Source of the DNA: an uncultured virus (IMG/VR IMGVR_UViG_3300010346_001238)
Lineage: Duplodnaviria; Heunggongvirae; Uroviricota; Caudoviricetes
Length of the DNA stretch: 64,000 nucleotides
Direction: 5' to 3' (one strand)
Virus record (IMG/VR): IMGVR_UViG_3300010346_001238
The position numbers and the translations under genes are program-made. Numbering within the stretch: position 1 is the first letter of the stretch; each line of letters opens with the position of its first letter. The notes below the pieces were generated by a model that saw nothing but the letters and a program-made list of their open reading frames with translations, was not told the DNA's origin and did no database searches. Shown here piece by piece: positions 32,092-64,000 of the stretch.

Positions 32092-33574
32092 TTATGATGC
32101 GGACTTTTGGGGAATTTTTTCCCCGCTAACGGCATGTGATGCCGCCGCCATCCTTTCGGAAATTGTTTTATTTTTAATATTTATGGCTGCATTTACATCT
32201 CGATCATGTTTAGCGCCACAATTAGAACACTTCCAAATTCTGGTATTAAGATCAATATCCGTATTCATATGTTTACATGAATTACACATTATGGTAGTGT
32301 ATGATTCAATTATATCATAGACTTCTTTGGGCGTCAAGGACAAATTTGCTTTATCTTTAGTTTTGGCCTTGAATTCGGATATGGCGTGTTCTCGGGATAT
32401 TGTATTGAAAGACTTTTTTTGTTTTCCTTGTCCTTTAGCTAAAGTATGTAATTTTACATCACCGATGCCAATGACATCATAATTGCGAAGAAAATGAATA
32501 GCTAATTTGTGATAATAATCTGATTTGGCGTTTTTAAAATGTAATTTAATTTTTGCTATTTGTTTAGTAGTTTCCAGCAATCGTTTACTACGGAATTTTG
32601 CTTTAGTTCCCCGTTTCCAAGTACCATCTGGATTATAGCAATGGGGATTTCCTTTACGAAATTGTCGATCTACTTTTCTTTGCAATTTTCGCAATTTTTT
32701 CTCTAGGCGATTATCTTTAGAAAGACTTTTAGGAGTAAATTTTTCTCCATCGCTGGTTGTAATGGCGGATTTCATGCCGGGGTCAATACCTACAATTTTT
32801 TCTGTAGGGGGGGCCAAAATCTCGGGTAAAAACTGATTTATCGGCTTCAATGGTGCATGTAATATACCATCGCCCAATTGGATTTTTCTTTAAAGAAATT
32901 TGTTTAATTGTACTTTCTTGTGGCAGTGGGCGATCTTCGGTAATTTCTACTTGAGATAGACAGGGGGAACCGCACCATGATAAATCTACATATTTTCCAA
33001 ATGTGAAAGCCGAGGTTGATATAATTTGTTTTTGGATGGCCGAGGTTTGTCCTTTCTTTTTAAATCGGGGGGCTTGATGTACTCTTTTTTCCCATGAATT
33101 ACAGAAATCATCCCAGTGACGAAGAATACTGAACCCAATAGCAGAAGATCCATCTTTAAGAATATGATTTTTTAGGGTATTTACTTTTTCTCCGGCATAA
33201 AGTCGGGCGAGATGGATATTTGAAAATCTTCGGTATCGGGATCCATCTTTTCTACGTTTGATTGCGGTATCTTTTTCGATGCGTTTTGAAATAAATAATT
33301 CCAGTGCTTTTTCTATGGAAATATTTTCTTGTTCGGCCAATTTTTTTACTTCACCGGCTCGTCTGCCGGTTAGTTTTTTTCCGGCAAACATTTTTGCATA
33401 TTCATTAATAATGGATGCTCTGCGTCCATTTTTACATTCGTGAAGGGCATGTCGGGTATGTCTGACAAGTTCATTCCATAGGATTCTGCTTTTTGTTCCG
33501 GCGTTTTCCAGTGCTTGAAGCTGCACGGGGGTTGGCAGAAGAGCGTACGTATAATTTCTCGTCATTTTTTCCAT
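32092..33574 (-). CDS. compact type V (TnpB/Cas12f-like) RNA-guided nuclease, split by a frameshift at C7 (32807-32813); 493 aa if C6
   Basis: N-terminal YTYALLPT..Q..L, PRFKKK, GRWYI; RuvC-I GIDPG; CNSC..CSNC; RuvC-III DRDVNAAINI; adjacent to the array. Confidence 0.9.
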
Positions 33575-33613
33575 TGTCGTCAATATACTTTAATGGGGAA
33601 TGAAAGTCAAGGA

Positions 33614-35515: not shown

Positions 35516-35922
35516 GGGCCTGACATGGATTCGATCTAAGGGAGGAGATATTTGATGCATGTAGAGGAAGATTGCTTGGCCTCTTAAAAAATGTAATCAA
35601 AAAAACAACTGCCAACCGATTAAACGAATTGGCCTCGGTGGATTTCTCTATGCCGCTTGTCGGCGTGGAGGAAACTGCTGGTGTTGAGCTAGCTTTAGCA
35701 TAACACCAAACACCCAAAGATTCTCGCTATGAGGGTGTTGAGCTAGCAGCGAGAAAACTGCTGGTGGTTAAAATTATCAGCGTGAAGGAATGGTCACTAT
35801 ATCATTCTATATCGTTTAGTTTGCTTATTATCGAACACGATGAAATCAAAAATAAGATAAACATGTAGATTCAGATTTTGATTCTTTTAGAGACCCGGGT
35901 TCGATTCCCGGCAGGTCCACCA
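35516..35922 (+). ncRNA. ssrA: tmRNA
   Basis: GGGCCTG/CAGGTCC-A-CCA acceptor with G3:U; GGATTCGA; T-arm; tag ORF 35611-35703 ending ELALA*. Confidence 0.95.
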
Positions 35923-40928: not shown

Positions 40929-41678
40929 ATGTATAAAAAATTAGGTGAAATAATTAATAAATCTAAATCTATAATTGCATTAACGGGGAATGGTATTTCT
41001 GTAAAAAGTGGAGTACCTGATCTTTATTCTTCTGATGCGTTATATTTTATTGAAAAATATAAAAATTATAAAATTGAAGAACTTTTATCTCTTCAAATGT
41101 TAGAAAAAAATCCCGAATTAGTTTTAACTTTTTATAAAGATTGGGCCAAAAAGGTTAATGAAAAAGAACCCAATGAGTCACACAAAATGTTGCGTCAATT
41201 AGAAGAAATGGGGAAATTGACATGGATTATAACACAAAATGTGGATAATTTGCATAAAAAAGCTGGTTCTAAACATGTAATAGAATTATTTGGGAATGTG
41301 ACACAATGGCGGTGTAGTGAACAATGTGGTGAAATATATACTTTTGACACCGCATACAAAATGTTAAATATAGATTCTAAACCCGAATGTACTCGATGTA
41401 AGAATGGTTATATTAGACCTGATATAGTATTATATGGAGAAGATATAGAAGAATGTACTGATTATATAGTAAGAAAAGAGATTCAAGAATGCGATTTAAC
41501 GATAACGATGGGAAATTCATTAGAAAATAGTATTATTTCTGAATTAATTCATGCAATTCCTAGTACTAATTCATTAGTTATAATAAATGAAAATAATACG
41601 CTTTTAGACCATCGGGCGGATTTGGTATTTAATGAATCTTGTGAAGAAGCGTTGAAAAATATTATAGAACTTTTTTAA
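40929..41678 (+). CDS. Sir2/CobB-family protein with catalytic His replaced by Phe
   Basis: TGNGISVKSGVPD, TQNVDNLH, ELFGN, Zn Cys pairs, RPDIVLYGE. Confidence 0.9.
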   Translation: MYKKLGEIINKSKSIIALTGNGISVKSGVPDLYSSDALYFIEKYKNYKIEELLSLQMLEKNPELVLTFYKDWAKKVNEKEPNESHKMLRQLEEMGKLTWIITQNVDNLHKKAGSKHVIELFGNVTQWRCSEQCGEIYTFDTAYKMLNIDSKPECTRCKNGYIRPDIVLYGEDIEECTDYIVRKEIQECDLTITMGNSLENSIISELIHAIPSTNSLVIINENNTLLDHRADLVFNESCEEALKNIIELF

Positions 41679-42055: not shown

Positions 42056-42655
42056 ATGAAGAAATTCACTAAAATGATGATTGGAGTGTCTGCGGCAGTA
42101 TTGGTTGCTATGACGACTTTGGCTGCTGACACCACCGTTAAGGCCGCAGGTAATCCTGTAGCTGTCGAAACTGCAAAGGTAAAATCTGATTCTCTATTTA
42201 ATGAAGGAGAATGGGGATTGACTCTTTCAACTGGATACGATCTAGGAGAATCCAAAGCTGTTAATGGAAAACATCTATTTGGACATCCCTATACGTATAA
42301 TCTCACCGTTGGAGCATTCTACTTCCCGTGGAAGTATGTCGGCGCTGAGGTCAACGTTCCATTTTATCAAACCAAGGGTGTATGTGTGGACGAAGTACAA
42401 GCCGGAATTTTGTTGAGAGTGCCTTTGGCCAAAGAAGCCCCGGTGTTTAGAAATATAGCTCCATATGTTGGAATAGGTGGGGTATATAATTGGCAAGACA
42501 ATAAAGATTGGGCGTATATTGGGAAAGCAGGAATTGAAGCCCGCTATAATAAGAAATGGGGAATTTACGCCGAGTGCCAATATCGTAATTATGAGTTGAA
42601 GAATTGGGATCAAGGTGCAGTTTCGCTTCAAGGCGGTCTGCGACTGGTATTCTAA
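42056..42655 (+). CDS. outer-membrane beta-barrel protein
   Basis: Signal peptide, APYVGIGG, amphipathic strands, terminal GLRLVF. Confidence 0.8.
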   Translation: MKKFTKMMIGVSAAVLVAMTTLAADTTVKAAGNPVAVETAKVKSDSLFNEGEWGLTLSTGYDLGESKAVNGKHLFGHPYTYNLTVGAFYFPWKYVGAEVNVPFYQTKGVCVDEVQAGILLRVPLAKEAPVFRNIAPYVGIGGVYNWQDNKDWAYIGKAGIEARYNKKWGIYAECQYRNYELKNWDQGAVSLQGGLRLVF

Positions 42656-50319: not shown

Positions 50320-51627
50320 ATGAATATATACCAATTATTAAAAGAATCAAAGCAGTTGTTGAATCAATCGGTTCAATTAAATCTTGACACTACTCAATTA
50401 ATTTCGGAGGCTCTTGAATTAGAATTGCACGAGGATTTATTAGTTGTTGTTTCTAATGAAGAAGATCGAAGAAAAGCTTCTCAAGAAACTTTTCGAAATA
50501 AAAGTGCGTTATATGCGGCTGGATTCAGATGGAATTCTGGAATAAATGCTTGGGTAATTGATAAATCCGAATTTAATCGTGTAAAGCCGATTATAATGAA
50601 AATAAATCAATCGGCAAAAAATCAGCTTGCAGATAGAGCAAATGAACTTTTAGATAAAATACAAAATACATCTGATTTGCGATCACATTCTCCTGGACTT
50701 TCTCGTAAAGAAGAGTTGAGTGTAATGATTGAAAAGTTCGTTGAAGATTTAACTACTGCTATAGATGACGTTAAGGCGTCTGAAACTTTTAGAAAATATT
50801 TGGAATTTGGTCTGCGATTTCGTTCTTATAGTTGGTATAATACGATGCTTATTTGGATGCAAAGACCTAGTGCAACAAAAGTGGCTGGATTTAAACAGTG
50901 GCAAGATAAGTTTTACAGACGAGTTAAAAAAGGAGCTAAAGGAATTACTATTTTAGCACCAATGATTTCAAAGAAAAAAGAAGAACCCGACGAAGATGGA
51001 ATAGATTCGACCGATTTAGATCCCGTTAAAAAAGAAAAAGAATATAAGCAAATACGATTTATGGCGGTAACTGTATTTGACATTTCTGATACTGAACCCA
51101 TAGACGAGCGGGGAGAAGTTCCCGAAGAACCTAATTGGAAAGGAAGCAATGATCCCAATGAAAAGGCGGATGAAGTATATGAATGTGCTGCTGAATTGGC
51201 CGATAATATGGGAATTAAACTTGAAACGGGTGATGCAAAGGGTTCTGAAATGGGGTGGGCTAAAGGAGATCATATAAATATTACTAGCAATATTGCCGGA
51301 GTAAATCGTGCAGCAACACTCATTCATGAAATTGCTCATGAATTATTACATTTTAAGAAATCCTCCCCGTTTTATGTTGGTGATGTAGATGATGTACGAT
51401 TGACCAGAGAAGTTGCTGAATTACAAGCAGAAACGGTTTCTTATATTGTAATTCGATATTATGAATTGCCCGCAGAGCATCATGCGACATATTTAGCTTT
51501 TTGGAAAGGTAATAAAGATGCTATTTCTAAAAACATAACACATATTCGTAAAGCTGCGGATTTTATTATTAAAGAAATAGATAAAATTCAAGAATATCGT
51601 AAAAAGGAAGCCGGGCCAGATTTATAA
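50320..51627 (+). CDS. ArdC-like N-terminal domain plus HExxH metallopeptidase-like domain
   Basis: YSWYNTMLIWMQRP.AT.VAGFKQW..RRVKKG.KGI.ILAP, VFDISDT, HEIAHELLH, ELQAE. Confidence 0.85.
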   Translation: MNIYQLLKESKQLLNQSVQLNLDTTQLISEALELELHEDLLVVVSNEEDRRKASQETFRNKSALYAAGFRWNSGINAWVIDKSEFNRVKPIIMKINQSAKNQLADRANELLDKIQNTSDLRSHSPGLSRKEELSVMIEKFVEDLTTAIDDVKASETFRKYLEFGLRFRSYSWYNTMLIWMQRPSATKVAGFKQWQDKFYRRVKKGAKGITILAPMISKKKEEPDEDGIDSTDLDPVKKEKEYKQIRFMAVTVFDISDTEPIDERGEVPEEPNWKGSNDPNEKADEVYECAAELADNMGIKLETGDAKGSEMGWAKGDHINITSNIAGVNRAATLIHEIAHELLHFKKSSPFYVGDVDDVRLTREVAELQAETVSYIVIRYYELPAEHHATYLAFWKGNKDAISKNITHIRKAADFIIKEIDKIQEYRKKEAGPDL

Positions 51628-54913: not shown

Positions 54914-54990
54914 GGCACCGTGGCCCAACAGGAAGAGGCGGCTGACTTAGGATCAGTAGGTTGGGGGTTCGAATCCCTCCGGTGCTACCA
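54914..54990 (+). tRNA. tRNA-Leu(TAG), short variable loop
   Basis: Cloverleaf, CCA. Confidence 0.88.
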
Positions 54991-55020
54991 CTTTATAAAT
55001 ACTCAAATGAAAGATTAAAA

Positions 55021-55515
55021 ATGATAACTAAAGTTATAGCTGATGTATTAAAATACCCATGTAATGCAATATGCCATCAGGCAAATTGTTTTCATACAAT
55101 GGGTTCGGGGGTAGCCCTTCAAATTAAGAAAAAATATCCCGAGGCTTATGAAGCCGATATTAAACATGGAAAAAAGGGAGATCGATTAAGATTAGGAAGT
55201 ATGTCGGTAGCCCAAGCTAAAGATGGAAAATATATTTATAATGTATATGGCCAATATGAATATGGAACCCATAAAAGACAAACTAATTATGAAGCTTTAT
55301 ATACTGGATTAGAATTAGTTAAATCTCATGCTTTGGATCACGATATAAAAGATTTAGCCGTACCTTATTATATGAGCAGTGCTTTGGCCGGAGGAAATTG
55401 GATAATAGTAGAATCAATGTTTCGTGCTTTATTTGAATATTCTACTATTAACATAATAGTTTGTGAATATAGACCTATGCATTATTGGTCTGCTGATGAA
55501 ATGAAGAAAAATTAA
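55021..55515 (+). CDS. macrodomain (ADP-ribose hydrolase-like) protein
   Basis: HQANCFHTMGSGVA..IK.KYP, NVYGQ, P..SSALAGGNW. Confidence 0.85.
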   Translation: MITKVIADVLKYPCNAICHQANCFHTMGSGVALQIKKKYPEAYEADIKHGKKGDRLRLGSMSVAQAKDGKYIYNVYGQYEYGTHKRQTNYEALYTGLELVKSHALDHDIKDLAVPYYMSSALAGGNWIIVESMFRALFEYSTINIIVCEYRPMHYWSADEMKKN

Positions 55516-56064: not shown

Positions 56065-56588
56065 ATGAACAAATTTCCATTATTAGATTTAGAAATAAGA
56101 AAATTTTTAGAAAATGTCATTGAAAAAGGACCCAGGCCCTTTAATATATTTGAATATGGTTCGGGAGGTTCTACGATTTGGTATGGTAAAAAAATATAGG
56201 CAAAATTATATCGTTGGAACATGATATAGAATGGTATAATGAAGTAAAAAAAGAAATTATAAATCTTCCAGTAGAATTATATTATCGTCCACCAATTAAA
56301 TCTAAAATTATAACTCATAGTTCTGTACTTCCAAATAATGATTTTAGTTCATATATTAATTTTATATCGGAACTTGATAAAAAATATAATTTGATAATTG
56401 TAGATGGTCGGGCGAGGGTTTTATGTTTTCAAAAGTCATTAAAATATGTAAATTTGGGAGGACATATTATATTGCATGATTCTGAACGAGAAGAATATAG
56501 TATATGTTGGAAAATGGCTACAAGAAATAGATTTAAAATTTGGGAAATTTTAGAAAAAAGAAATACGTTGATTTGTCAAAAGTATTAA
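56065..56588 (+). CDS. class I SAM methyltransferase, frameshifted at A7 (56188-56194)
   Basis: FEYGSGGST in one frame; ISLEHD..IIVDGRAR..ILHDS in another; A8 restores the frame. Confidence 0.75.
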
Positions 56589-56591
56589 TAT

Positions 56592-56667
56592 GCTCTCATA
56601 GCTTAAATGGAAAAGTGCCACGGTCCTAACGTGGAAGATATAGGTTCAAGTCCTATTGAGAGTACCA
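56592..56667 (+). tRNA. tRNA-Arg(CCT)
   Basis: Cloverleaf, CCA. Confidence 0.88.
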
Positions 56668-56668
56668 T

Positions 56669-56742
56669 TCCCGTTTAGTGTAACGGTAGCATAACAGGCT
56701 TTGAACCTGTCGGTCCACGTTCGAATCGTGGAGCGGGAGCCA
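56669..56742 (+). tRNA. tRNA-Gln(TTG)
   Basis: Cloverleaf, CCA. Confidence 0.9.
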
Positions 56743-56874
56743 TTTTAAAATAAATAATATTTTATATATGACATAATATATATAAAAGAAGACCAAGTGG
56801 TTTTCGATATTTACGCCTTGAGTGAGGGTAAATATTTTAATTGACTAAATGTAATTAAAAAAGAAAGGAAATAT

Positions 56875-57345
56875 ATGTTACCAGTAAAATTTAGATTATT
56901 TGACTCTCCATTTGTTGATCGAGATGAATTTCTCACTCCATTTTCAACTATGTTTGATACCTTATATAATGACATGTTTAAAGACTTTAATAAGGATTTT
57001 TTTGAAAAGGGTACTTATCCAAAAGTTGATGTGCGGGATGAATCGGATTGTATAATTATAGAAGCCGAGGTTCCTGGATTAACAAAAGATCAAATTAAAG
57101 TGGAAATAGATGGAACATCTCTACGTATTAAAGGTGAAAAAAAGAAAGTTGATGAAACAAAATCCAAAACGTATTTACATAAAGAATTAAAACATTCTGC
57201 GTTTTGTCGTTCTTTTACAATTGGAAAGAATATCAAAATGGAAGATATTTCTTCCAAATTTGAAAATGGAGTTCTCGAAATTGTTTTGCCAAAAATTAAA
57301 CCGGAAGGAAAGCCGAAAACGGTAAGACAAATTGAAATTAAGTAA
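56875..57345 (+). CDS. Hsp20 small heat-shock protein
   Basis: YPKVDV..EAEVPG..F.RSF..FENGVLEI.LPK. Confidence 0.92.
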   Translation: MLPVKFRLFDSPFVDRDEFLTPFSTMFDTLYNDMFKDFNKDFFEKGTYPKVDVRDESDCIIIEAEVPGLTKDQIKVEIDGTSLRIKGEKKKVDETKSKTYLHKELKHSAFCRSFTIGKNIKMEDISSKFENGVLEIVLPKIKPEGKPKTVRQIEIK

Positions 57346-57394
57346 TACTTGACAAATCTTCAAGTATCTGCTACACTGTGGCCGATACTTGATT

Positions 57395-57482
57395 GGTGGG
57401 TTGGCAGAGCGGACGAATGCATCCGACTTGAAATCGGAAGTGGGCAACACCACCGGAGGTTCGAATCCTTCACCCACCGCCA
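57395..57482 (+). tRNA. tRNA-Ser(TGA)
   Basis: Cloverleaf with V-arm, CCA. Confidence 0.93.
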
Positions 57483-57484
57483 AT

Positions 57485-57559
57485 GCAAGATTAGCTCAGT
57501 GGAAGAGCACCTCGCTTACACCGAGGGGGTCGAAGGTTCAAATCCTTCATCTTGCACCA
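57485..57559 (+). tRNA. tRNA-Val(TAC)
   Basis: Cloverleaf, CCA. Confidence 0.93.
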
Positions 57560-57564
57560 TTTTT

Positions 57565-57652
57565 GGAGGGGTGCTAGAGTGGTAATAGGCCGGACTGCTA
57601 ATCCGGTGCCCCGGTTAAACGGGCGGGAGTTCGATCCTCCCCCCCTCCGCCA
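57565..57652 (+). tRNA. tRNA-Ser(GCT)
   Basis: Cloverleaf with V-arm, CCA. Confidence 0.9.
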
Positions 57653-57668
57653 TATGTAACATATAACT

Positions 57669-57947
57669 ATGATAAACTGCCCAAGATGTGGTAAGAAGAA
57701 ATATGGGTATCATACCTTAGATTATTCTATGCGCCGGGCAGGTTGTTATGCGTGTGGATATGGATTTGAACATGACAAATCTCAACATTTTGAGTGCCAA
57801 GGGAAAACTCAATATGCATCAAAAAATAAAGCGATGACCGAAATTCATCGCATAATTGAAGATTCATGTGGGGGAGAAGGAAAAGAACTACGGCCATATA
57901 AATGTAAATATTGTAATTATTGGCACTTAACTTCTAAAAAAATATGA
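57669..57947 (+). CDS. Zn-finger protein
   Basis: CPRC, CYAC, LRPYKCKYCNYWHLT. Confidence 0.7.
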   Translation: MINCPRCGKKKYGYHTLDYSMRRAGCYACGYGFEHDKSQHFECQGKTQYASKNKAMTEIHRIIEDSCGGEGKELRPYKCKYCNYWHLTSKKI

Positions 57948-58129
57948 TTATAAAAATACTTGTTTATATATTGCTCGGATTAATTTGGTCTTTACTTTTT
58001 TCAGTAATAGATCCCAAAAGATATATGCATATAATGGAATCAAGATTATATTTAATTTTAAATATTTTAATATGGCCATTAAGTATAATACTTCTTTTAA
58101 TTATTTATTTTAATGAAATGGGAAATTAG
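57944..58129 (+). CDS. small membrane protein
   Basis: Two hydrophobic segments; 3' end overlaps tRNA-Val. Confidence 0.6.
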   Translation: MIIKILVYILLGLIWSLLFSVIDPKRYMHIMESRLYLILNILIWPLSIILLLIIYFNEMGN

Positions 58130-58193
58130 GCTAGTGGTAAACTGCAAGAATGACACTCTTGATTCAATGGTTCGATTCCATTATTTCCCACCA
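58120..58193 (+). tRNA. tRNA-Val(GAC)
   Basis: Cloverleaf, CCA. Confidence 0.87.
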
Positions 58194-58220
58194 AGTTTGG
58201 AAAAATTAAATACTATTTAT

Positions 58221-58456
58221 CTTTGGTGCGGGAAGAAAACCCGCCTGCTTTAGCGGGTGGGATGAATGCCCGTTAATATAATAATGATTTTGGAATGATT
58301 CCAAAATATGTATATTTTGACTTTCCAGTTCAATAAGAACTGGGGAACGGCGGGAACCGCCGTCTAAGCCAACTGCCTTGACGTAAGACAAATTCCTAGC
58401 GGAATTTGCAGTTGATTGGGTTGGAAACCCATTCGCTTTAGCGGATGGGTAGTTCA
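58221..58456 (+). mobile_element. non-autonomous IS200/IS605-derived element, copy 2
   Basis: Near-identical to 41772-42005; also follows TTTAT. Confidence 0.85.
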
Positions 58457-58465
58457 TGAAATGTT

Positions 58466-58720
58466 ATGAGCAAATTAAATGGATTTCGAAAAAAATTAAA
58501 ATTAGATCGGGTATTGATTGCCGAGCAGGTTGCGCATGAAAAAACAATTAAAGAGGGAAAAAGTATAATAAAGGAATGTTGTGAAAAAGACGCCGAATTC
58601 GCTCGAAAAATTTCTGAAATTACTGGAGAAAATTGCACGGAAGAAACCAAAAACCCGAATCTCCAAGCCTCGTTCACGGAACAAAATGAAGAATCTCAGT
58701 CCAAAGAAAAAGAAACCTAA
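58466..58720 (+). CDS. hypothetical protein
   Basis: ORF only. Confidence 0.6.
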   Translation: MSKLNGFRKKLKLDRVLIAEQVAHEKTIKEGKSIIKECCEKDAEFARKISEITGENCTEETKNPNLQASFTEQNEESQSKEKET

Positions 58721-58728
58721 TAAGAAGT

Positions 58729-58805
58729 CAGGGTGTAGCACAGCCCGGTAGTGCGCTTGCCTTGGGCGCAAGAGGTCGGGAGTTCGAATCTCCCCACCCT
58801 GACCA
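58729..58805 (+). tRNA. tRNA-Pro(TGG)
   Basis: Cloverleaf, CCA. Confidence 0.93.
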
Positions 58806-58812
58806 TTAAATT

Positions 58813-59286
58813 ATGAATAGAGAAGAAAAATTAAAAAAAATTATTGATCAATTAAAAGAAGATGGAATAAATATTGAACCTTCTTTAAAAATTGAAGAAG
58901 TGAATATTGAAAAACCAATAAAAATAGACGTAAATATTAATGCGTTATGTATTTCTTTTGTAGTTATTAGTGGTTATATGGAAGAATTAAAAAAATCTGG
59001 AATTATAGATGAACAATTTACTACAATTCATGATTCTGGCAAAAAAATTATTTCGGTGAGTGAAAAATTTAATTGGACTCCTACCGATGAAGAAATTAAA
59101 GCTTTTATTTTAGGAGTTTTGGAAGAAAGTGTACCCGAAAAACAAATTTTTTATTTATGTACTCTTAAACAATATAGAGATGATAAAGAAGGATTATTAA
59201 AAAAGTTTAAAAAAGAAGAGATTCGAGAAATAGAAAATACTGATAAACAATGCTGCTGTGGTGGAATGGCAGACACGCAAGTTTGA
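58813..59286 (+). CDS. hypothetical protein reading into tRNA-Leu
   Basis: ORF; last 35 nt lie inside the tRNA. Confidence 0.65.
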   Translation: MNREEKLKKIIDQLKEDGINIEPSLKIEEVNIEKPIKIDVNINALCISFVVISGYMEELKKSGIIDEQFTTIHDSGKKIISVSEKFNWTPTDEEIKAFILGVLEESVPEKQIFYLCTLKQYRDDKEGLLKKFKKEEIREIENTDKQCCCGGMADTQV

Positions 59287-59337
59287 GGTACTTGTGCTTT
59301 TAAGAGCTTGGAGGTTCGAGTCCTCTCAGCAGCACCA
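59252..59337 (+). tRNA. tRNA-Leu(GAG)
   Basis: Cloverleaf with V-arm, CCA. Confidence 0.92.
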
Positions 59338-59351
59338 ATAAAAAGGATATT

Positions 59352-59798
59352 ATGATAAAAATAATTACTTCAATGTTAGAAGATAATAGTGGAGGTATTT
59401 CTACTATTAGAGTATGTTTATTGTTGTGGTTAATAATTCTGGGGTTTAATATGACTTATGGAACTATTACCGAAAAACCATTCCCTATTACAGGAGAATT
59501 AGTTGCTTTAACATCATGTGTATTTGGAGCAAAAGCAATTCAAAGATTTGGTGAGAAAGGTGAAGAAGAAGCGGCGATTGCGTCAAATAATTTAAATACG
59601 GGGGACGTTAGAATATCGCAACTTCCTCTAACTGTGAGTGTGCAAGGATCGGTTCCAGTGAGTGGAATGGTGCCAATTTCGGCCAATCCTTCGGTGCCAA
59701 CTGTAATTCCAATGACTCCAGTTGTACCTGAGCCGCAACCAGTTCCAAATCCTCGGGAACCCGAGCCGTGGGGTCCCGGACAAGTAGCTGCGCCTTAA
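59352..59798 (+). CDS. two-TM membrane protein with Pro-rich tail, possibly holin-like
   Basis: S..R TM1, TM2 ..GAK..QRFGE. Confidence 0.6.
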   Translation: MIKIITSMLEDNSGGISTIRVCLLLWLIILGFNMTYGTITEKPFPITGELVALTSCVFGAKAIQRFGEKGEEEAAIASNNLNTGDVRISQLPLTVSVQGSVPVSGMVPISANPSVPTVIPMTPVVPEPQPVPNPREPEPWGPGQVAAP

Positions 59799-59850
59799 AC
59801 TTGACATTTAAAACTAATGTGATATAATTTTACATGATCTTTGAAAATTA

Positions 59851-60086
59851 TTTAGGCGACTTAGACGCTGAATATGGTTAAGCCCATATTTAGAGGAAGT
59901 TCGATACTACCAAACCTAATGTGGGAGAAAATATTTCATTGACCACAGAAGTAGCAATCCTAAATGTCCGAGGGTGTCGGTTTCCCATTGACGACTGGTT
60001 GGAGCAGCAACTATTAGCACGTTGCCACAATTTTTATTGTGAGATAAATGTCTAAGATAATACAGAATATCGGCTATTTGCCTAAA
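59851..60086 (+). ncRNA. rnpB: RNase P RNA, very compact (~236 nt)
   Basis: P1 tttaggcga/ttgcctaaa; P2 cttagac/gtctaag; P3 hairpin; GAGGAAGTTCGATAC and ACAGAATATCGGCTA form P4; AGATAAATG; CCACAGAA. Confidence 0.8.
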
Positions 60087-60092
60087 GAATTT

Positions 60093-60180
60093 CGGATAGA
60101 CGCCCATAAGGTAGGTGCCGAAAGGGCTGCGTAGGTGACGCTAAAACAACAATGTCGTTTCGTTGTTCACCGTCTATCCG
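60093..60180 (+). ncRNA. unidentified small structured RNA
   Basis: 10-bp closing stem cggatagacg/cgtctatccg, GAAA tetraloop. Confidence 0.5.
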
Positions 60181-60194
60181 TCAATTTAATAGAT

Positions 60195-60270
60195 GGGGTT
60201 ATCGTTCAATTTAGTAGGATAGGAAATTCGCAATTTTCAGATCTGTGTGCAATTCACAGTAACTCCACCA
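60195..60270 (+). tRNA. tRNA-Ala(CGC)
   Basis: G3:U70, TTCGCAA loop, CCA. Confidence 0.85.
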
Positions 60271-60321
60271 TTTTCAAAATAACTGCACTCTTTTTCGTTC
60301 GTCTCCACTATTTATTGTTGT

Positions 60322-61155
60322 ATGAAAATGACAACAATAGTTTGTGCTAATTGTAAAAAAAAGTGTGAAAAACCAACAAAGGAAATAACTCGTCAACGTA
60401 AACAAGGACGATTAAAATTTTATTGTTCATTATCATGTTCGTCGTCGAATACACAAATTACAACACACAAAATAATATCAAAATGTTTATGGTGTAAAAA
60501 TGATTTTTATACTACAACGCATAAAAATCATCGAAAATGCTGTAGTAAACTTTGTGCTTATAAATATTCAAGATCATTTGTTAATCCGCAAAAAATTTCA
60601 ACGTCATTAAAAGAATACAATAAACTTCATCCCCGCCATAAAATATATCCTATAGAAAAAACTTTTATATGTACAATATGTAAATTATCATTTATAAAAA
60701 CTATAAGATCACAATTTGAAACATATAAAACATGTGGAGATACATGTTATAGAAAACTTGTAAGTCAATGGACTCGTAATAATCCTAATTGTGGGGGGAA
60801 ACTTGGATATAGAAGATTTTTATATAAAGGATATAAAATGGATTCCCGGTGGGAAGTTGAACTGGCAAAATGGATGGACAATCGGAAAATAAAATGGAAT
60901 AGAAATAAAAAGCGATATATGTTTTGGTGGATTGATGAAAATGGAAATAGACGAAAATATTTTCCCGATTTTTATCTTCCTGATTATAAAGTGTATCTTG
61001 ATCCAAAAAATGCATATTATTTAAAACGAGATCTTCCAAAATTACAATATGTAATAAACACGTACAATATTATATTATTTTATGGAAATGTTGAAGATAT
61101 AAAAAATTCTATTGACAAACTATGGAAAAATGTTATAATTAAGGATGTAAATTAA
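60322..61155 (+). CDS. Zn-finger + PD-(D/E)XK nuclease, homing-endonuclease-like, paralog 1
   Basis: CxxC/CSxxC repeats; DSRWE..YFPDFYL..YLDPK. Confidence 0.75.
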   Translation: MKMTTIVCANCKKKCEKPTKEITRQRKQGRLKFYCSLSCSSSNTQITTHKIISKCLWCKNDFYTTTHKNHRKCCSKLCAYKYSRSFVNPQKISTSLKEYNKLHPRHKIYPIEKTFICTICKLSFIKTIRSQFETYKTCGDTCYRKLVSQWTRNNPNCGGKLGYRRFLYKGYKMDSRWEVELAKWMDNRKIKWNRNKKRYMFWWIDENGNRRKYFPDFYLPDYKVYLDPKNAYYLKRDLPKLQYVINTYNIILFYGNVEDIKNSIDKLWKNVIIKDVN

Positions 61156-61168
61156 ATAAAATTAAATT

Positions 61169-61768
61169 ATGGAAAATATAGGACTTTCAGAAAAAATAAT
61201 ATCATTATTAAATAAAACATTGGGAATGCAAAGTTTGGCCCAAATAATACATATCTGTCATTATGTGCTTGAAACAGAACCTCTCGGAGGAGTTATAGTT
61301 GAATTTGGATGTTATGCCGGAGACACCGCAAAAGTCATTACAGAATTAACAAATCGACCTGTACATGTATATGATAGTTTTCAAGGACTTCCCGATCACA
61401 ATGGATATATGCAAATGCCAAAGAAAATTTTAATAGAAAATTTTAAATATGATCGGGTAAAATTGCCACATATACATGAAGGATGGTTTAATGAATTAAA
61501 ACCCGAAGAAGTACCGGATCAAATATCATTTGCTCATTTGGATGGAGATTTATATGAAAGTATAAAAGATTCTCTTTTTCTTGTATATGACAAAATGATT
61601 AAAGATGGAATTATTTTAATAGACGATTATGACCATCCTAGATTTCCAGGCGTACGTAAAGCAGTTAATGAATTCATGATAAATAAACCTGAAGAAATTA
61701 GATTTCTCAATGAAATTCCACATGAAGTAATAGCAATTGGATCTAAAGCTTATATTAAAAAATTATAG
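61169..61768 (+). CDS. TylF/MycF-family O-methyltransferase
   Basis: VEFGCYAG, DSFQGLP, GWF, HLDGDLYES, IDDY. Confidence 0.88.
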   Translation: MENIGLSEKIISLLNKTLGMQSLAQIIHICHYVLETEPLGGVIVEFGCYAGDTAKVITELTNRPVHVYDSFQGLPDHNGYMQMPKKILIENFKYDRVKLPHIHEGWFNELKPEEVPDQISFAHLDGDLYESIKDSLFLVYDKMIKDGIILIDDYDHPRFPGVRKAVNEFMINKPEEIRFLNEIPHEVIAIGSKAYIKKL

Positions 61769-61790
61769 TTAATATATTTTACGGTTATAT

Positions 61791-62435
61791 ATGAAAATTA
61801 GGATTTATTCCTTATTGATTTTTTTGGTTTCATTTAATATTCTGTCGCAAACTCGGACAGTTACTACTACAAATTTATATTCCATACGATTTATTAATAA
61901 TGAACAATATACAAATATAATGTGCATTTGTAATTTCGGAGAAGTAATTAAAATCAATGAGTTTTTTCAGGGCGGAGATATTGGGGCACATCAAACCACT
62001 AAACATTGGATGGAAAATCGAACAATTATTACATTTGATTTAGATAATATACCGCTTGCAATTTCAAATAAAATGATTTCTAAAGCAACTTTAATTTTGG
62101 CATTGCAAAATCAACAAAACGGATTGCCAGGATCAAAAATAGATATACATATTTTTCATGATAAAAATTTAATAACTACAAATTATTGGGCCGAGGGAAT
62201 ATATTATTCAAGTTTTTTTGATGTGCCTAATGTACAGGAAATTGATATAACGGGAGCAGTAAAGTCGGCAAAACAAAACAATAATTCAATTTTAGGATTG
62301 CGAATGTCAACCGAATTGTATAATTTTAGTTGTATATTTATTAATCCATATTGGAAGACTAATAAAATTTCAATGGTATTAGATTATTCTCCTGCTAATA
62401 TTCCTCAAAAACCTAAATATTTAAAATCAATTTAA
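61791..62435 (+). CDS. secreted beta-rich protein
   Basis: Signal peptide; FDL..I.KATL.L..DIT.AV. Confidence 0.65.
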   Translation: MKIRIYSLLIFLVSFNILSQTRTVTTTNLYSIRFINNEQYTNIMCICNFGEVIKINEFFQGGDIGAHQTTKHWMENRTIITFDLDNIPLAISNKMISKATLILALQNQQNGLPGSKIDIHIFHDKNLITTNYWAEGIYYSSFFDVPNVQEIDITGAVKSAKQNNNSILGLRMSTELYNFSCIFINPYWKTNKISMVLDYSPANIPQKPKYLKSI

Positions 62436-62498
62436 GAATTTGCTTGACATTTTTTGAATTTCCATTATACTTATAGTCGTATAATAAATGATCTTTAT

Positions 62499-62570
62499 TG
62501 CGGGGGAGTGTGATGGTGCACGACAGTTTCATAAGCTGTAGGACCAGTTCGATTCTGGCGACCGCAACCA
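62499..62570 (+). tRNA. tRNA-Met(CAT), acceptor mismatches
   Basis: acagt-TTCATAA-gctgt, T-arm, CCA. Confidence 0.75.
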
Positions 62571-62634
62571 ATTTCATCTGGAAGTGATGGCAGAAAAATG
62601 TCTGACTCAATGTAGGCATCTCGTCATTTTTAAT

Positions 62635-62708
62635 GGGGCCGTAGTATAACGGTAGTACGGGACATTTGCAATGTTCAGGTAGGTGTTCGACTCACCCCGG
62701 CTCCACCA
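62635..62708 (+). tRNA. tRNA-Ala(TGC)
   Basis: G3:U70, cloverleaf, CCA. Confidence 0.9.
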
Positions 62709-62757
62709 TTCTTCAAGTATTCCAATTCATTTCTGTTTCTCTCCACTATTTATTGGT

Positions 62758-63549
62758 GTGAAAACCATACCAATAACTTGTCGGAAATGCAATGCTTCAT
62801 TCAAGATTAAATCTTCGGAATATAATCGGCAACTTCGAAACGGAAGAGATTATTTTTTCTGTTCTTTATCTTGTGCCCAATCTTATAATAAAACCACTAC
62901 GTTTAGGATAGTATCTACATGTGTATGGTGTAAACGAGATTTTGAAACATCTACTCATAAAAAAGCAAGACGATGTTGCTCGTTAGATTGTGCTCATAAA
63001 TATTCTCAATCGAAAGTTGATCCTGAAACTCATAGACTTTCTTTACAACGAAAAAAACATTTTCCAAAAGAAAAACAATTTATTTGTGTAATTTGTCACA
63101 GAGCGTTTATAAAAACTGTACTTTCCGATTCTAAACATTTTCAAGTATGTTCTCCGATATGCTGCAATGAACTACTTCGACAAAAAGCCATATCCAACCC
63201 AAATTGCGGCGGCGAAACCGGATATCGACACTACAAGTATCGGGACGTGTGGATGGATTCGGCATGGGAAGTAAATTTGGCAAAATGGATGGATGATAAT
63301 GGAATTTATTGGGAGCGCAGTAGAAAGCGTCATATGTTTTGGTGGACGGATGATGACGGTCAAAAACGACGATATTATCCAGATTTCTATCTACCGGATT
63401 ATGATGTCTATCTTGACCCCAAAAACAAATACCGAATGAAAATGGACGAATACAAATTGACAAAAGTTGTAAATGAAAATGGAATTCATCTCATTTGGGG
63501 AGAAATAGAGAATGTGAAAAAAGAAATTGACACTTTGCGTAGAATGTGA
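62758..63549 (+). CDS. Zn-finger + PD-(D/E)XK nuclease, paralog 2 (GTG start)
   Basis: Colinear with the 60322 ORF; DSAWE..YYPDFYL..YLDPK. Confidence 0.75.
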   Translation: MKTIPITCRKCNASFKIKSSEYNRQLRNGRDYFFCSLSCAQSYNKTTTFRIVSTCVWCKRDFETSTHKKARRCCSLDCAHKYSQSKVDPETHRLSLQRKKHFPKEKQFICVICHRAFIKTVLSDSKHFQVCSPICCNELLRQKAISNPNCGGETGYRHYKYRDVWMDSAWEVNLAKWMDDNGIYWERSRKRHMFWWTDDDGQKRRYYPDFYLPDYDVYLDPKNKYRMKMDEYKLTKVVNENGIHLIWGEIENVKKEIDTLRRM

Positions 63550-63599
63550 TATATGTATGGGAGTAATGACACTCCGAGGGCACTTCCCTTGAGTTCATT

Positions 63600-63673
63600 G
63601 GGGTTATCGTATAATGGTAGTACATGTGAATGGCATTCACAAAGTTGGGGTTCGACTCCCCATAACTCCACCA
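63600..63673 (+). tRNA. tRNA-Ala(GGC)
   Basis: G3:U70, cloverleaf, CCA. Confidence 0.9.
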
Positions 63674-63679
63674 GTTAAT

Positions 63680-64000
63680 ATGAAAATTAAAATTGTAACT
63701 TTAAGTGATAAAAATCGTAAAGAAATAAGTGATGTTACATTTCCAACGTTAGAAAAATTTTCTATTAATACTGGGATTGAATTAACACGACATACATCTC
63801 TTATAGATCCATCAATACATGCAAAATGGAATAAATTTTTATCTTTGAAATTGGAAATAGAAAAATATGACTGGATAATATGGATGGATTCAGATATATC
63901 AATTATAAATAAAAATTTTGATTTAAAAAATTATTTATCTACATTTGATAAAAGGACAAACTTTTTAATTTCAATGGATTGTAATGGGCCATGTACAGGG
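63680..64000 (+). CDS. GT34/Mnn10-like glycosyltransferase, partial
   Basis: Manual translation: KWNK..YDWIIWMDSD..D.NG.CTG. Confidence 0.75.
   Translation, partial: MKIKIVTLSDKNRKEISDVTFPTLEKFSINTGIELTRHTSLIDPSIHAKWNKFLSLKLEIEKYDWIIWMDSDISIINKNFDLKNYLSTFDKRTNFLISMDCNGPCTG

What the first reader, a model, noticed from the sequence alone, without database searches (positions are those of the whole stretch)
59851..60086. Miniature phage RNase P RNA inside the tRNA array
Seen: P1-P4 and the conserved-region motifs of bacterial RNase P RNA are present, with P15- and P18-like hairpins (gcaac/gttgc, cacaat/attgtg). The RNA is only ~236 nt and the specificity domain is strongly reduced. It has its own promoter at 59801. 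Known: bacterial RNase P RNAs are usually 350-400 nt and the S-domain reads the T/D loops. Inference: it may suit this phage's many non-canonical T-loop tRNAs.
Basis: partly seen in the sequence, partly recalled or inferred. Interest (0 to 1): 0.75.

Follow-up and report, generated by a model that had tools for sequence, protein, structure and literature searches.

The report
Phage-encoded miniature RNase P RNA
A large uncultured phage carries, inside its block of 33 tRNA genes, an expressed cut-down copy of RNase P RNA (the ribozyme that trims the front end of new tRNAs) that keeps the catalytic half and has almost lost the half that reads tRNA shape.

Summary
Window 59851-60086 (+) is a promoter-driven, roughly 236-250-nt RNA gene. 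Its fold matches the catalytic domain of bacterial type A RNase P RNA: P1, P2, P3, the P4 pseudoknot with a bulged U, P5, the P6 pseudoknot, P15-P17 and P18.

The single-stranded signatures are in their expected places: CR-I, CR-IV, CR-V, the J5/15 GCAA and the L15 GGU. It belongs to a family of 16 distinct sequences found in viral and metagenome contigs and in 0 of 19 bacterial candidate loci. On an alignment not fitted to the structure, 85% of cells pair, against 34-40% for slid controls, and 53 of 73 pairs show compensatory changes.

The specificity domain is a stub. The segment that holds it is 47 nt here, the smallest in the family, against a median of 171 nt in 18 bacterial rnpB genes. 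Metatranscriptome contigs from 4 studies cover the RNA but not the neighbouring ORFs.

Against: no Rfam RNase P model matches, even at E<=10. The family's own model finds only 1 of 17 bacterial rnpB genes, although that hit is the top hit and is colinear over its full length.

No rnpA gene was found, so a host protein is presumably used. Catalysis is untested.

This scan has noted the same kind of RNA before on other DNA (85 notes). Seven literature searches found no paper on it.

The parts
59801..59828 (+). Sigma-70-type promoter: TTGACA, 16-nt spacer, TG-extended TATAAT
   Evidence: 12 of 12 hexamer matches with TG. Similar TTGACA-17-TAtAaT promoters can be read upstream of relatives L099, L057, L126 and L076 in the printout (by eye).
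59838..59850 (+). Leader TCTTTGAAAATTA between the promoter and P1. The motif recurs in several relatives, and RNA contigs start within it (59840-59842).
   Evidence: sequence printouts, by eye; contig starts in 3 runs of 3 studies. Function unknown. Bases 59845-59849 could extend P1 by pairing with 60088-60092 (by eye).
59851..59858 (+). P1, 5' strand (TTTAGGCG)
   Evidence: Pairs with 60079-60086. In the family all 9 P1 pairs show changes on both sides, and 85.9% of cells pair on A3.
59860..59866 (+). P2, 5' strand (CTTAGAC)
   Evidence: Pairs with 60050-60056. The six inner pairs are standard in 16 of 16 sequences, and 5 of them change on both sides.
59868..59893 (+). P3 hairpin
   Evidence: 10 pairs, 88.6% of cells paired, 6 pairs with changes on both sides.
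59893..59906 (+). CR-I-like GAGGAAGTTCGATA: J3/4 plus the P4 5' strand, with the bulged U at 59900
   Evidence: 13 of the 14 positions are invariant in 16 of 16 family members; the third base is A in L126. 17 of the 19 bacterial rnpB genes have GAGGAAAGUCCG at the same place.
59907..59954 (+). P5 (CTAC/GTAG) enclosing the P6 5' strand AAACC (59912-59916), P7 (TGTGG 59920-59924 with CCACA 59943-59947) and an 18-nt stub (59925-59942). This is all that remains of the specificity domain.
   Evidence: P5 98.4% and P7 93.8-100% of cells paired on A3; the segment is 47 nt here, against a family median of 60.5 and a bacterial median of 171.
59955..60003 (+). J5/15 (C)AA, P15 (TCC/GGA), the L15 5' side TAAAT, P16 (GTC/GAC), P17 (GGG/CCC) whose loop carries the P6 3' strand GGTTT (59979-59983), and the L15 3' side with GGT (59997-59999)
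   Evidence: GCAA and GGT are invariant in 16 of 16 members. P15, P16 and P17 covary. P6 pairs in 91.3% of cells on the unfitted alignment and 3 of its 5 pairs change on both sides. The bacterial counterparts GAGCAAGRCCAAAUAGGG and CGGGUAGGYUGC were read.
60007..60025 (+). Family-specific hairpin (GCAAC/GTTGC) with a conserved 9-nt loop TATTAGCAC, between P15 and P18
   Evidence: 5 pairs, all with changes on both sides, 98.7% of cells paired on A3. There is no counterpart in E. coli rnpB. Its position recalls P15.1 of type B RNAs; that comparison is recalled, not tested.
60026..60041 (+). P18 hairpin (CACAAT/ATTGTG) with loop TTTT
   Evidence: 5 pairs, all with changes on both sides. 7 of 16 relatives have a GNRA tetraloop here (GAAA or GCAA, by eye). 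The window does not.
60042..60075 (+). CR-IV-like AGATAAATG, P2 3' strand GTCTAAG, J2/4 ATAATACAGAA, and the P4 3' strand TATCGGCT (CR-V-like)
   Evidence: bacterial AGAKRAAUG, then the P2 3' strand, then ACAGAA-NNC-GGCUUA. The string AGAUAAAUG is identical in bacterial locus L231.
60079..60086 (+). P1, 3' strand (TGCCTAAA)
60093..60181 (+). Cloverleaf-like structured RNA directly downstream. It is co-transcribed and may mark the processing site that makes the 3' end of the RNase P RNA.
   Evidence: -35.0 kcal/mol, z = -3.77, four-way junction; one RNA contig ends at 60181 and two end at 60090 and 60094. Relatives were found in L256 and L259. The link to processing is inference.
60195..60270 (+). 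tRNA-Ala(CGC), the next gene of the same transcription unit
   Evidence: The RNA contig 59960-60271 bridges the RNase P RNA, the cloverleaf and this tRNA. tRNA-Ala(CGC) lies downstream in 5 other family members.

Best explanation
This is a phage gene for a minimised RNase P RNA, a homologue of the catalytic (C) domain of bacterial type A RNase P RNA.

Shown:
- It is transcribed from its own strong sigma-70 promoter as part of a unit that continues into a cloverleaf-like RNA and tRNA-Ala(CGC).
- Its secondary structure is P1-P2-P3, the P4 pseudoknot with a bulged U, P5, the P6 pseudoknot, P15-P16-P17, an extra hairpin, and P18.
- The conserved joining regions that build the active site and bind substrate in bacterial RNase P are present in the right places.

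Inferred:
- The L15 GGU pairs with the 3' CCA that all 33 phage tRNA genes encode.
- The J5/15 adenosine and the P4 core position the scissile bond.
- The RNA, probably with the host's RnpA protein (no phage rnpA was found), removes 5' leaders from the phage's many pre-tRNAs and its tmRNA.
- With almost no S-domain, it would recognise substrates mainly through the acceptor stem and CCA rather than the T-loop/D-loop elbow.
- Cleavage at the 5' edge of the downstream cloverleaf and tRNA would also release the ribozyme's own 3' end.
For: 1. Structure with covariation. On the MAFFT alignment A1, which is not fitted to any structure, 85.3% of 1160 cells pair, against 34.3-40.4% when partners are slid by 1-3 columns. 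The covariation score is 0.528 against 0.086-0.147. 53 of 73 pairs change on both sides, and 0 of 500 shuffles reach any measure. On the model-registered alignment A3 the figures are 91.2%, 0.626 and 54 of 73.

2. Both pseudoknots, which were not part of the covariance model, hold. P4 has 7 of 8 pairs invariant and 99.2% of cells paired. P6 has 91.3% paired with AAACC/GGUUU, AAACA/UGUUU, AAGCA/UGCUU and CAGCA/UGCUG variants. L116 has GUGAC/GUCAC (by eye).

3. Signature motifs are invariant or nearly so in 16 of 16 members and match 19 bacterial rnpB genes at homologous positions: CR-I, the bulged U (E. coli U69), GCAA (A248), GGU (G292-U294), CR-IV (328-336) and CR-V (347-361).

4. One descriptor combining CR-I, CR-IV, CR-V and P4 complementarity hits 15 of 19 bacterial rnpB genes, exactly one site in the 64-kb window (59893-60075, +) and 7 of 16 family members. 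It hits nothing else in 330 kb of fetched loci and nothing in 200 shuffled windows. The descriptor was written post hoc.

5. With filters off, the family model R1 searched against 17 bacterial rnpB loci (51 kb) gives as its top hit L239 1497-1866. The rnpB gene there is 1501-1867. The hit scores 14.2 bits, E = 0.0066, and aligns P1, P2, P3, CR-I, P5, P7, GCAA, P15-P17, GGU, CR-IV and CR-V colinearly.

6. Expression. 16 runs on record as RNA hold part of the stretch. In the 4 runs laid (4 studies), contigs cover 59840/41/42 to 60090/60094/60181 and 59960-60271, and none covers the flanking ORFs.

7. Context. There are 33 tRNA genes and a tmRNA on the same strand. 33 of 33 tRNAs encode CCA. 9 of the 15 other family members have tRNA genes within the fetched flanks.

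8. Plausibility. [quoted passage not shown]
Against: No Rfam RNase P family (bacterial A or B, archaeal, nuclear, type T) matches. This holds at gathering score, at E<=10 on the locus, on 6 larger relatives and for RF00010 on the near-identical viral record.

The reverse searches are also mostly negative.
- R1 with default filters finds 0 of 18 rnpB genes in 19 bacterial genomes.
- R1 finds nothing in E. coli rnpB; the best hit is 4 bits and lies outside the gene.
- With filters off, 16 of 17 rnpB loci give no significant hit.
- A bacterial rnpB HMM finds nothing at the locus.

P4 does not vary, so covariation says nothing for or against it. Contigs cannot prove transcript ends, strand or abundance, and DNA carry-over in RNA libraries is possible (caveats). 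J3/4 is one A shorter than in bacteria, the base after GGCU is A rather than U, and P18 has lost its GNRA loop in this member. No cleavage activity has been measured.
Confidence: 0.77

Rival explanations
1. The RNA is a non-catalytic mimic. It keeps the RnpA-binding surface (P2-P4, CR-IV, CR-V) and the CCA-binding L15 in order to sequester host RnpA protein or pre-tRNAs. That would reprogram or starve host tRNA maturation rather than cleave anything itself.
For: The S-domain is almost gone. No phage rnpA was found, so any protein partner must be taken from the host. Rfam models and most reverse searches fail. P18 has lost its GNRA loop in this member.
Against: The nucleotides that matter for chemistry rather than protein binding are invariant in 16 of 16 members: the bulged U in P4 and the J5/15 GCAA. 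The J3/4 A-rich stretch is invariant apart from one G-to-A change in L126. The P6 pseudoknot is maintained by compensatory changes; the abstract of PMC5839562 links a P6-like interaction to efficient catalysis by an isolated C-domain. A phage with 33 tRNA genes needs more 5' processing, not less.
Confidence: 0.1
2. The RNA is an unrelated structured phage RNA, for example a processing scaffold or regulator of the tRNA operon, whose resemblance to RNase P RNA is convergent or coincidental.
For: No library covariance model or HMM links it to RNase P. The descriptor test was written after both sets had been seen.
Against: The resemblance is colinear over at least ten elements, including two pseudoknots and five conserved single-stranded motifs. 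The family model's best hit in 51 kb of bacterial DNA is a full-length rnpB aligned element by element. The descriptor gave no hits in 200 shuffles and no off-target hit in 330 kb.
Confidence: 0.05
3. The RNA is a decaying remnant of a captured host rnpB gene with no present function.
For: Loss of the S-domain looks like decay. The window's copy is the smallest and has lost the P18 GNRA loop.
Against: There are 16 distinct sequences with 53-54 of 73 pairs kept by compensatory change. Conserved promoters lie upstream. An identical 236-nt copy occurs on several contigs. RNA contigs cover it in 4 studies. No conserved reading frame exists.
Confidence: 0.03

Closest known systems
Bacterial type A RNase P RNA (rnpB / M1 RNA; Rfam RF00010)
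   Same: It has the same helices in the same order: P1, P2, P3, the P4 pseudoknot with bulged U, P5, the P6 pseudoknot, P7, P15-P17 and P18. It has the same conserved joining sequences at the same places: CR-I, J5/15 GCAA, L15 GGU, CR-IV and CR-V.
   Different: It is about 236-250 nt against 352-492 nt in the 19 bacterial genes fetched. The P5-to-J5/15 segment that holds the S-domain is 47 nt against a median of 171. P8-P14 and CR-II are absent. There is an extra hairpin between P15 and P18. J3/4 is one A shorter and P4 one pair longer. It does not reach any Rfam RNase P score. It is carried by phages, not cells: 0 of 19 bacterial candidate loci were real.
Type T RNase P RNA of Thermoproteaceae (Rfam RF02357; PMC3579882, search listing and abstract only)
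   Same: It is a natural RNase P RNA that has lost most of the specificity domain, is roughly 200 nt long, and needed its own model to be detected. The abstract seen says several Rfam models are needed for divergent homologues.
   Different: Type T is an archaeal, cellular RNA that works with archaeal proteins. The phage RNA has bacterial type A features (P6, the P15-P17 module with L15 GGU, P18), and the Rfam type T model does not match it. Details of type T anatomy are recalled, not tested here.
Engineered C-domain-only E. coli RNase P RNA (Eco CP RPR; PMC5839562, abstract read)
   Same: It is a catalytic domain without the S-domain, and it depends on a P6 or P6-mimic interaction. The engineered form is active with and without C5 protein, at reduced efficiency.
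   Different: That construct is a laboratory truncation. The phage RNA is a natural, conserved and expressed gene that keeps P7 and a small stub and adds its own hairpin.
Reduced organellar RNase P RNAs (for example yeast mitochondrial Rpm1); recalled, not examined here
   Same: They are extreme reductions that keep P1, P4 and little else, showing that the core tolerates loss of peripheral helices.
   Different: Organellar RNAs lose much of the C-domain periphery as well and depend on dedicated proteins. The phage RNA keeps the full type A C-domain.

Membership tests
Bacterial type A RNase P RNA (RF00010) | Scores at or above the Rfam RF00010 gathering threshold (100 bits) | tested here: not met
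   No RNase P hit at gathering score on the window, at E<=10 on 59600-60350, on 6 larger relatives, or for RF00010 on the near-identical viral record G001. The positive control worked: 18 of 19 bacterial genomes were hit.
Bacterial type A RNase P RNA (RF00010) | P4 pseudoknot formed by CR-I and CR-V, with a bulged U (E. coli U69) | tested here: met
   8 pairs, 99.2% of cells paired, 7 of them invariant. The bulged U is invariant in 16 of 16 members. The bacterial sequence is the same at most positions. There is no covariation because the helix does not vary.
Bacterial type A RNase P RNA (RF00010) | Nested P1, P2 and P3 helices closing the molecule around P4 | tested here: met
   9 of 9 P1 pairs, 6 of 7 P2 pairs and 6 of 10 P3 pairs change on both sides. 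The P2/P3 junction GACGCUG compares with bacterial GUCGCUG.
Bacterial type A RNase P RNA (RF00010) | Conserved J18/2 (CR-IV) and J2/4 ACAGAA before the P4 3' strand GGCU(U)A | tested here: met
   The window has AGAUAAAUG, then ACAGAA, then UAUCGGCUA. Bacteria have AGAKRAAUG, then ACAGAA, then NNCGGCUUA. The family variant ACAAAA also occurs in bacterial L223 and L236.
Bacterial type A RNase P RNA (RF00010) | P15 with an internal loop carrying GGU that pairs with the tRNA 3' RCCA; J5/15 adenosine (E. coli A248) | tested here: met
   GGU and GCAA are invariant in 16 of 16 members and lie at positions homologous to E. coli 292-294 and 246-249. P15 covaries. The pairing with CCA is inferred from recalled bacterial work and was not tested. 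33 of 33 phage tRNAs encode CCA.
Bacterial type A RNase P RNA (RF00010) | P6 pseudoknot between the P17 loop and J5/7 (type A specific) | tested here: met
   91.3% of cells pair on the unfitted alignment. 3 of 5 pairs change on both sides, with four sequence variants. P6 was not part of the covariance model.
Bacterial type A RNase P RNA (RF00010) | Specificity domain P7-P14 with CR-II/CR-III, which reads the T-loop/D-loop elbow | tested here: not met
   Only P7 and an 18-nt stub remain. The segment is 47 nt against a bacterial median of 171 (range 154-279, n = 18 of 19 measurable). A trace of the CR-III side, GUUAAUACCAC against bacterial GGUAAACCCCAC, is kept in relatives and is degenerate in the window.
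Bacterial type A RNase P RNA (RF00010) | P18 with a GNRA tetraloop docking into P8 | tested here: inconclusive
   The P18 helix is present and covaries. The loop is UUUU in the window and GNRA in 7 of 16 members (by eye). The P8 receptor is absent.
Bacterial type A RNase P RNA (RF00010) | Endonucleolytic removal of pre-tRNA 5' leaders, with the RnpA protein in vivo | not testable with these tools
No rnpA gene was found among 99 window ORFs or in 5 phage records, one of them rated 100% complete.
Type T RNase P RNA (RF02357) | Matches the Rfam type T model; archaeal C-domain without an S-domain | tested here: not met
   All 4227 Rfam families were scanned and none of the RNase P families matched. 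The RNA shares S-domain loss with type T but has bacterial type A modules.

The most novel reading that the evidence does not exclude
Large phages run their own tRNA-maturation ribozyme, a natural near-C-domain-only RNase P. It ignores the tRNA elbow and selects substrates through the acceptor stem and the encoded CCA alone. That would let it process the phage's whole RNA operon: 33 tRNAs, the tmRNA, the odd cloverleaf-like RNA next door, and its own 3' end. It would do so while borrowing, and thereby draining, the host's single RnpA protein. This would be the first virus-encoded RNase P and a natural experiment in how little RNA the enzyme needs.
Probability: 0.35. Interest if true: 0.9.

Novelty: new variant of a known kind. 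Interest (0 to 1): 0.8.

Why it matters
RNase P RNA is regarded as a universal cellular ribozyme. I found no paper describing a virus-encoded one in seven full-text searches.

A conserved, expressed phage family that keeps the complete type A catalytic domain on a stub of a specificity domain would matter in three ways.
1. It would add tRNA 5' maturation to the list of translation functions that large phages bring with them.
2. It would provide natural minimal RNase P RNAs, with a graded series of S-domain sizes (the segment ranges from 47 to 140 nt), for asking what the S-domain is really needed for.
3. It would show that standard annotation with the Rfam models misses them.

The practical point is that a dedicated covariance model is needed. 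The one built here scores family members at 150-254 bits.

Tried and rejected
- **Rfam models.** Gathering score on the window, E<=10 on the locus, on 6 relatives, and RF00010 on G001: no RNase P hit.
- **blastn against 50,697 phage records.** No match for the locus. For 56100-64000 only tRNA-sized matches, each covering 2% or less of the query.
- **Bacterial rnpB HMM (19 sequences) against the window.** Two junk hits elsewhere, at E = 20 and 110.
- **Family model R1 against E. coli rnpB with filters off.** Best hit 4.0 bits, outside the gene.
- **R1 over 19 bacterial genomes.** 11 weak hits at E = 0.115-6.84, none at an rnpB locus.
- **Pattern scans.**
  - The exact 15-mer gave 117 stretches, mostly chance.
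  - L142 and L145 are coding sequence.
  - 41 of the 58 metagenome loci and all 19 genome-contig loci are not family members.
- **S-domain supplied in trans.** I considered that the downstream cloverleaf-like RNA might be the missing S-domain. I rejected this as unsupported. It is present next to the member with the largest S-region (L034/L121) as well as next to the smallest ones, it is absent next to the small-S member L126, and it occurs without an RNase P RNA within 400 nt in L259.
- **Small protein gene.** Rejected, because the longest open frames differ in strand and frame among members.
- **Phage classification.** Pfam and PHROGs gave no hallmark that types the phage.
- **RNA-run rows I did not lay.** These rows are not used as evidence beyond the count of holders.
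Full report
**Setting.** The window carries 33 tRNA genes and one tmRNA (35516-35922), all on the + strand. They sit among small ORFs with phage-type accessory domains: Sir2, Macro, Hsp20, ArdC-like, a TnpB-like pair and HNH-like endonucleases. The window's own assembly is not held. The nearest record, a 101,814-bp viral contig (G001), is 100% identical over 59780-60200. The finding lies in a 396-nt gap between an ORF ending at 59798 and tRNA-Ala(CGC) at 60195.

**Observation.**
- P1 is 59851-59858 with 60079-60086.
- P2 is 59860-59866 with 60050-60056.
- P3 is 59868-59893.
- GAGGAAGTTCGATA is at 59893-59906, AGATAAATG at 60042-60050, and ACAGAA-TATCGGCT at 60062-60075.
- The two hairpins are at 60007-60025 and 60026-60041.
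- The promoter at 59801-59828 is a perfect 12/12 TTGACA-16-TATAAT with a TG extension.

The + strand folds better than its shuffles (z = -2.77, 0 of 200 as good) and better than the - strand (z = -1.90).

**The library test fails.** No Rfam RNase P model matches. This holds at gathering score on the window, at E<=10 on 59600-60350, on six larger relatives, and for RF00010 on G001.

**A family.** Pattern scans were run on viral contigs, metagenome contigs and bacterial or archaeal genomes. They were filtered by blastn, by regex and then by a family covariance model. This gave 16 distinct sequences: 27 full-length model hits at 149.9-254.5 bits among the 88 sources searched.
- 17 of the 58 metagenome loci were real.
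- 0 of the 19 bacterial-genome loci were real.
- Several members lie on contigs of 100-354 kb. One 353,772-bp record is rated 100% complete.
- An identical 236-nt copy occurs on several viral contigs and one metagenome contig.
- 9 of the 15 other members have tRNA genes inside the short flanks fetched. The order tRNA-Leu(GAG), then the RNA, then tRNA-Ala(CGC) recurs.
- TTGACA-17-TAtAaT promoters can be read upstream of L099, L057, L126 and L076 (by eye).

**Structure.** I wrote the helices from the window sequence and the relatives, and counted them first on the plain MAFFT alignment A1, which is not fitted to any structure.
- 85.3% of 1160 cells form standard pairs, against 34.3-40.4% with the 3' partner slid by 1-3 columns.
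- The covariation score is 0.528, against 0.086-0.147 for the slid controls.
- 53 of 73 pairs change on both sides.
- 0 of 500 shuffles reach any of the five measures.

On the model-registered alignment A3 the figures are 91.2%, 0.626 and 54 of 73. That alignment leans towards the nested helices, but not towards P4 and P6, which the model cannot contain.

Per helix:
- P2's six inner pairs are standard in 16 of 16 sequences, and five of them vary on both sides.
- P15, P16, P17, the extra hairpin and P18 all covary.
- P4 is essentially invariant (7 of 8 pairs never vary), so covariation is silent on it.
- P6, the loop-to-joining-region pseudoknot typical of type A RNAs, pairs in 91.3% of cells. 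It occurs as AAACC/GGUUU, AAACA/UGUUU, AAGCA/UGCUU and CAGCA/UGCUG. In L116 it is GUGAC/GUCAC (by eye).

**Comparison with real bacterial genes.** I fetched E. coli rnpB and 18 rnpB genes from diverse genomes using RF00010. Read side by side, the phage family and the bacteria share the following, in the same order:

| Element | Bacteria | Phage family |
|---|---|---|
| P2/P3 junction | GUCGCUG | GACGCUG |
| CR-I | GAGGAAAGUCCG | GAGGAAGUUCG |
| Bulged U | E. coli U69 | present |
| Trace of the CR-III side of the S-domain | GGUAAACCCCAC | GUUAAUACCAC |
| J5/15 and L15 5' side | GAGCAAGRCCAAAUAGGG | GUGCAAUCCUAAAU |
| L15 3' side and P15 | CGGGUAGGYUGC | AAGGUUGGAGCA |
| CR-IV | AGAKRAAUG | AGAUAAAUG (identical in bacterial L231) |
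| CR-V | ACAGAANNCGGCUUA | ACAGAAUAUCGGCUA |

The E. coli positions come. The functional roles of U69, A248 and G292-U294 are established knowledge that I recall. The A248 to N(-1) interaction is also stated in the abstract of PMC10465520, which I saw only in the listing.

A single descriptor made of CR-I, CR-IV, CR-V and P4 complementarity gave these results:
- 15 of 19 bacterial rnpB genes
- exactly one site in the window (59893-60075, +)
- 7 of 16 family members
- nothing else in 330 kb of fetched loci
- nothing in 200 shuffled windows

It was written after I had seen both sets, so it measures shared signature and is not a blind test.

**Model-level link.** The family model R1 gave mostly negative results against bacteria.
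- With default filters it finds no rnpB in 19 genomes.
- It finds nothing in E. coli rnpB, even with filters off.
- With filters off over 17 rnpB loci (51 kb, both strands), 16 loci give nothing significant.

The top hit of that last search, however, is L239 1497-1866, where the rnpB gene is 1501-1867. It scores 14.2 bits at E = 0.0066; E-values from this model are rough. The alignment is colinear from P1 to P1. It places the bacterial S-domain as one long insertion in the stub's loop, and matches CR-I, GCAA, GGU, CR-IV and CR-V to their counterparts. I read this as modest but real support for homology. The many misses show how far the family has diverged, being AT-rich with shortened helices.

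**What is missing.** The segment from the end of the P4 5' strand to the J5/15 GCAA, which contains P5, P7 and the whole S-domain, compares as follows:
- 47 nt in the window, the smallest of the family
- family median 60.5 nt, range 47-140
- bacterial median 171 nt, range 154-279, in 18 of 19 genes that could be measured

Only P7 and an 18-nt stub remain. P18 keeps a GNRA tetraloop in 7 of 16 members but has UUUU here (by eye). A family-specific hairpin with a conserved 9-nt loop sits between P15 and P18.

**Expression.**
- 20 public runs hold part of 59780-60280. 16 are on record as RNA, across 17 studies.
- I laid four runs from four studies. Their contigs cover 59841-60181, 59842-60090, 59840-60094 and 59960-60271 with no differing letters.
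- No contig covers the ORFs on either side.
- Three contigs start within 3 nt of each other, just downstream of the start predicted from the promoter. Two end at the 5' edge of the downstream cloverleaf (60093). One ends at that cloverleaf's 3' edge (60181). One bridges into tRNA-Ala and ends at its CCA.

Contigs cannot prove ends, strand or level, so this is a hint of a stable RNA of about 250 nt cut out of a longer precursor. It is not a measurement.

30 of 33 tRNAs have the canonical TTCRA T-loop. The exceptions are two TTTGA loops and the TGCAA loop of the neighbouring tRNA-Ala(CGC). The phage does not have 'many non-canonical T-loops'.

A different correlate stands out. All 33 tRNA genes encode the 3' CCA, the partner of the invariant L15 GGU. 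That fits an enzyme which, lacking an elbow reader, leans on the acceptor end.

**Protein partner.** No Ribonuclease_P (RnpA) domain was found among 99 window ORFs, or by six-frame search of five phage records that carry family members, one of them complete. The RNA would have to use the host's RnpA or act alone. The abstract of PMC5839562 reports that the E. coli C-domain without the S-domain cleaves substrates with and without C5, less efficiently, and that this depends on a P6-like interaction. That is the helix this family preserves by compensatory change.

**Verdict.**
- Homology to the type A RNase P RNA catalytic domain is well supported; I put it above 0.9.
- Activity as the phage's own RNase P ribozyme is the best explanation (0.77) but is untested.
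- The main rival is a non-catalytic mimic that captures host RnpA or pre-tRNAs (0.1).

It fails two membership tests for RF00010, the model score and the S-domain. I therefore file it as a new variant of a known kind rather than as an ordinary member.

Seven literature searches found no description of a phage- or virus-encoded RNase P RNA. Subscription-only papers are outside the library searched.

This scan's own notebook holds 85 earlier notes of the same kind on other DNA, one of them on the identical 236-nt sequence. They are unchecked AI notes and are not counted as evidence here.

Noticed in passing
window 60093-60181 (+): A roughly 89-nt cloverleaf-like RNA sits directly after the RNase P RNA. 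It has a 9-10-bp closing stem and three arms, one with a loop reading AGGUGA. It folds at -35.0 kcal/mol, z = -3.77. Neither Rfam nor ARAGORN recognises it. Relatives lie in L256 (the contig of L057) and L259, where the closing stem is followed by ACCA like a tRNA 3' end. A weaker look-alike follows L034/L121. Of the 12 pattern hits, 6 were real (3 distinct sequences) and 6 were chance.
   Followed up: partly
window 35516-35922 (+): A phage-borne tmRNA (125.1 bits to RF00023) with the predicted tag peptide ANRLNELASVDFSMPLVGVEETAGVELALA. It is another likely RNase P substrate.
   Followed up: no
window 60195-60270 (+); relatives L151, L162, L032, L034, L127: tRNA-Ala(CGC) has an unusual T-loop, TGCAATT. 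It lies just downstream of the RNase P RNA in the window and in 5 other members. tRNA-Leu(GAG) lies upstream in the window and in several members, so this looks like a conserved gene order.
   Followed up: partly
window 59838-59850 (+); the same place in L057, L099, L151, L162, L034, L032, L147: A conserved TCTTTGAAA(W)TTT motif lies between the promoter and P1. RNA contigs begin inside it, so it may belong to the mature RNA or be a processing or protein-binding site.
   Followed up: no
window 60322-61152 (+) and 62683-63546 (+): Two ORFs of 277 and 288 aa share PHROG hits (phrog_22215, a resolvase-like family, and an HNH endonuclease family). They sit between the three tRNA-Ala genes and are probably homing-endonuclease-type insertions in the tRNA array.
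   Followed up: no
window 32095-33583 (-): Two overlapping ORFs carry HTH_OrfB_IS605, and OrfB_IS605 plus a Cas12f1-like TNB domain. Together they look like a TnpB-type gene split into two frames.
   Followed up: no
L132 (contig of L029), about 25-110 nt downstream of its RNase P RNA: By eye this is a tRNA-Tyr(GUA)-like gene with a long variable arm, a non-canonical T-loop (GCAAATT) and an encoded ACCA end. ARAGORN did not call it.
   Followed up: no
window 40929-41675, 54961-55512, 50320-51624, 42056-42652 (+): Sir2-family, Macro-domain, ArdC-like anti-restriction and outer-membrane beta-barrel ORFs are interspersed with the tRNA genes.
   Followed up: no
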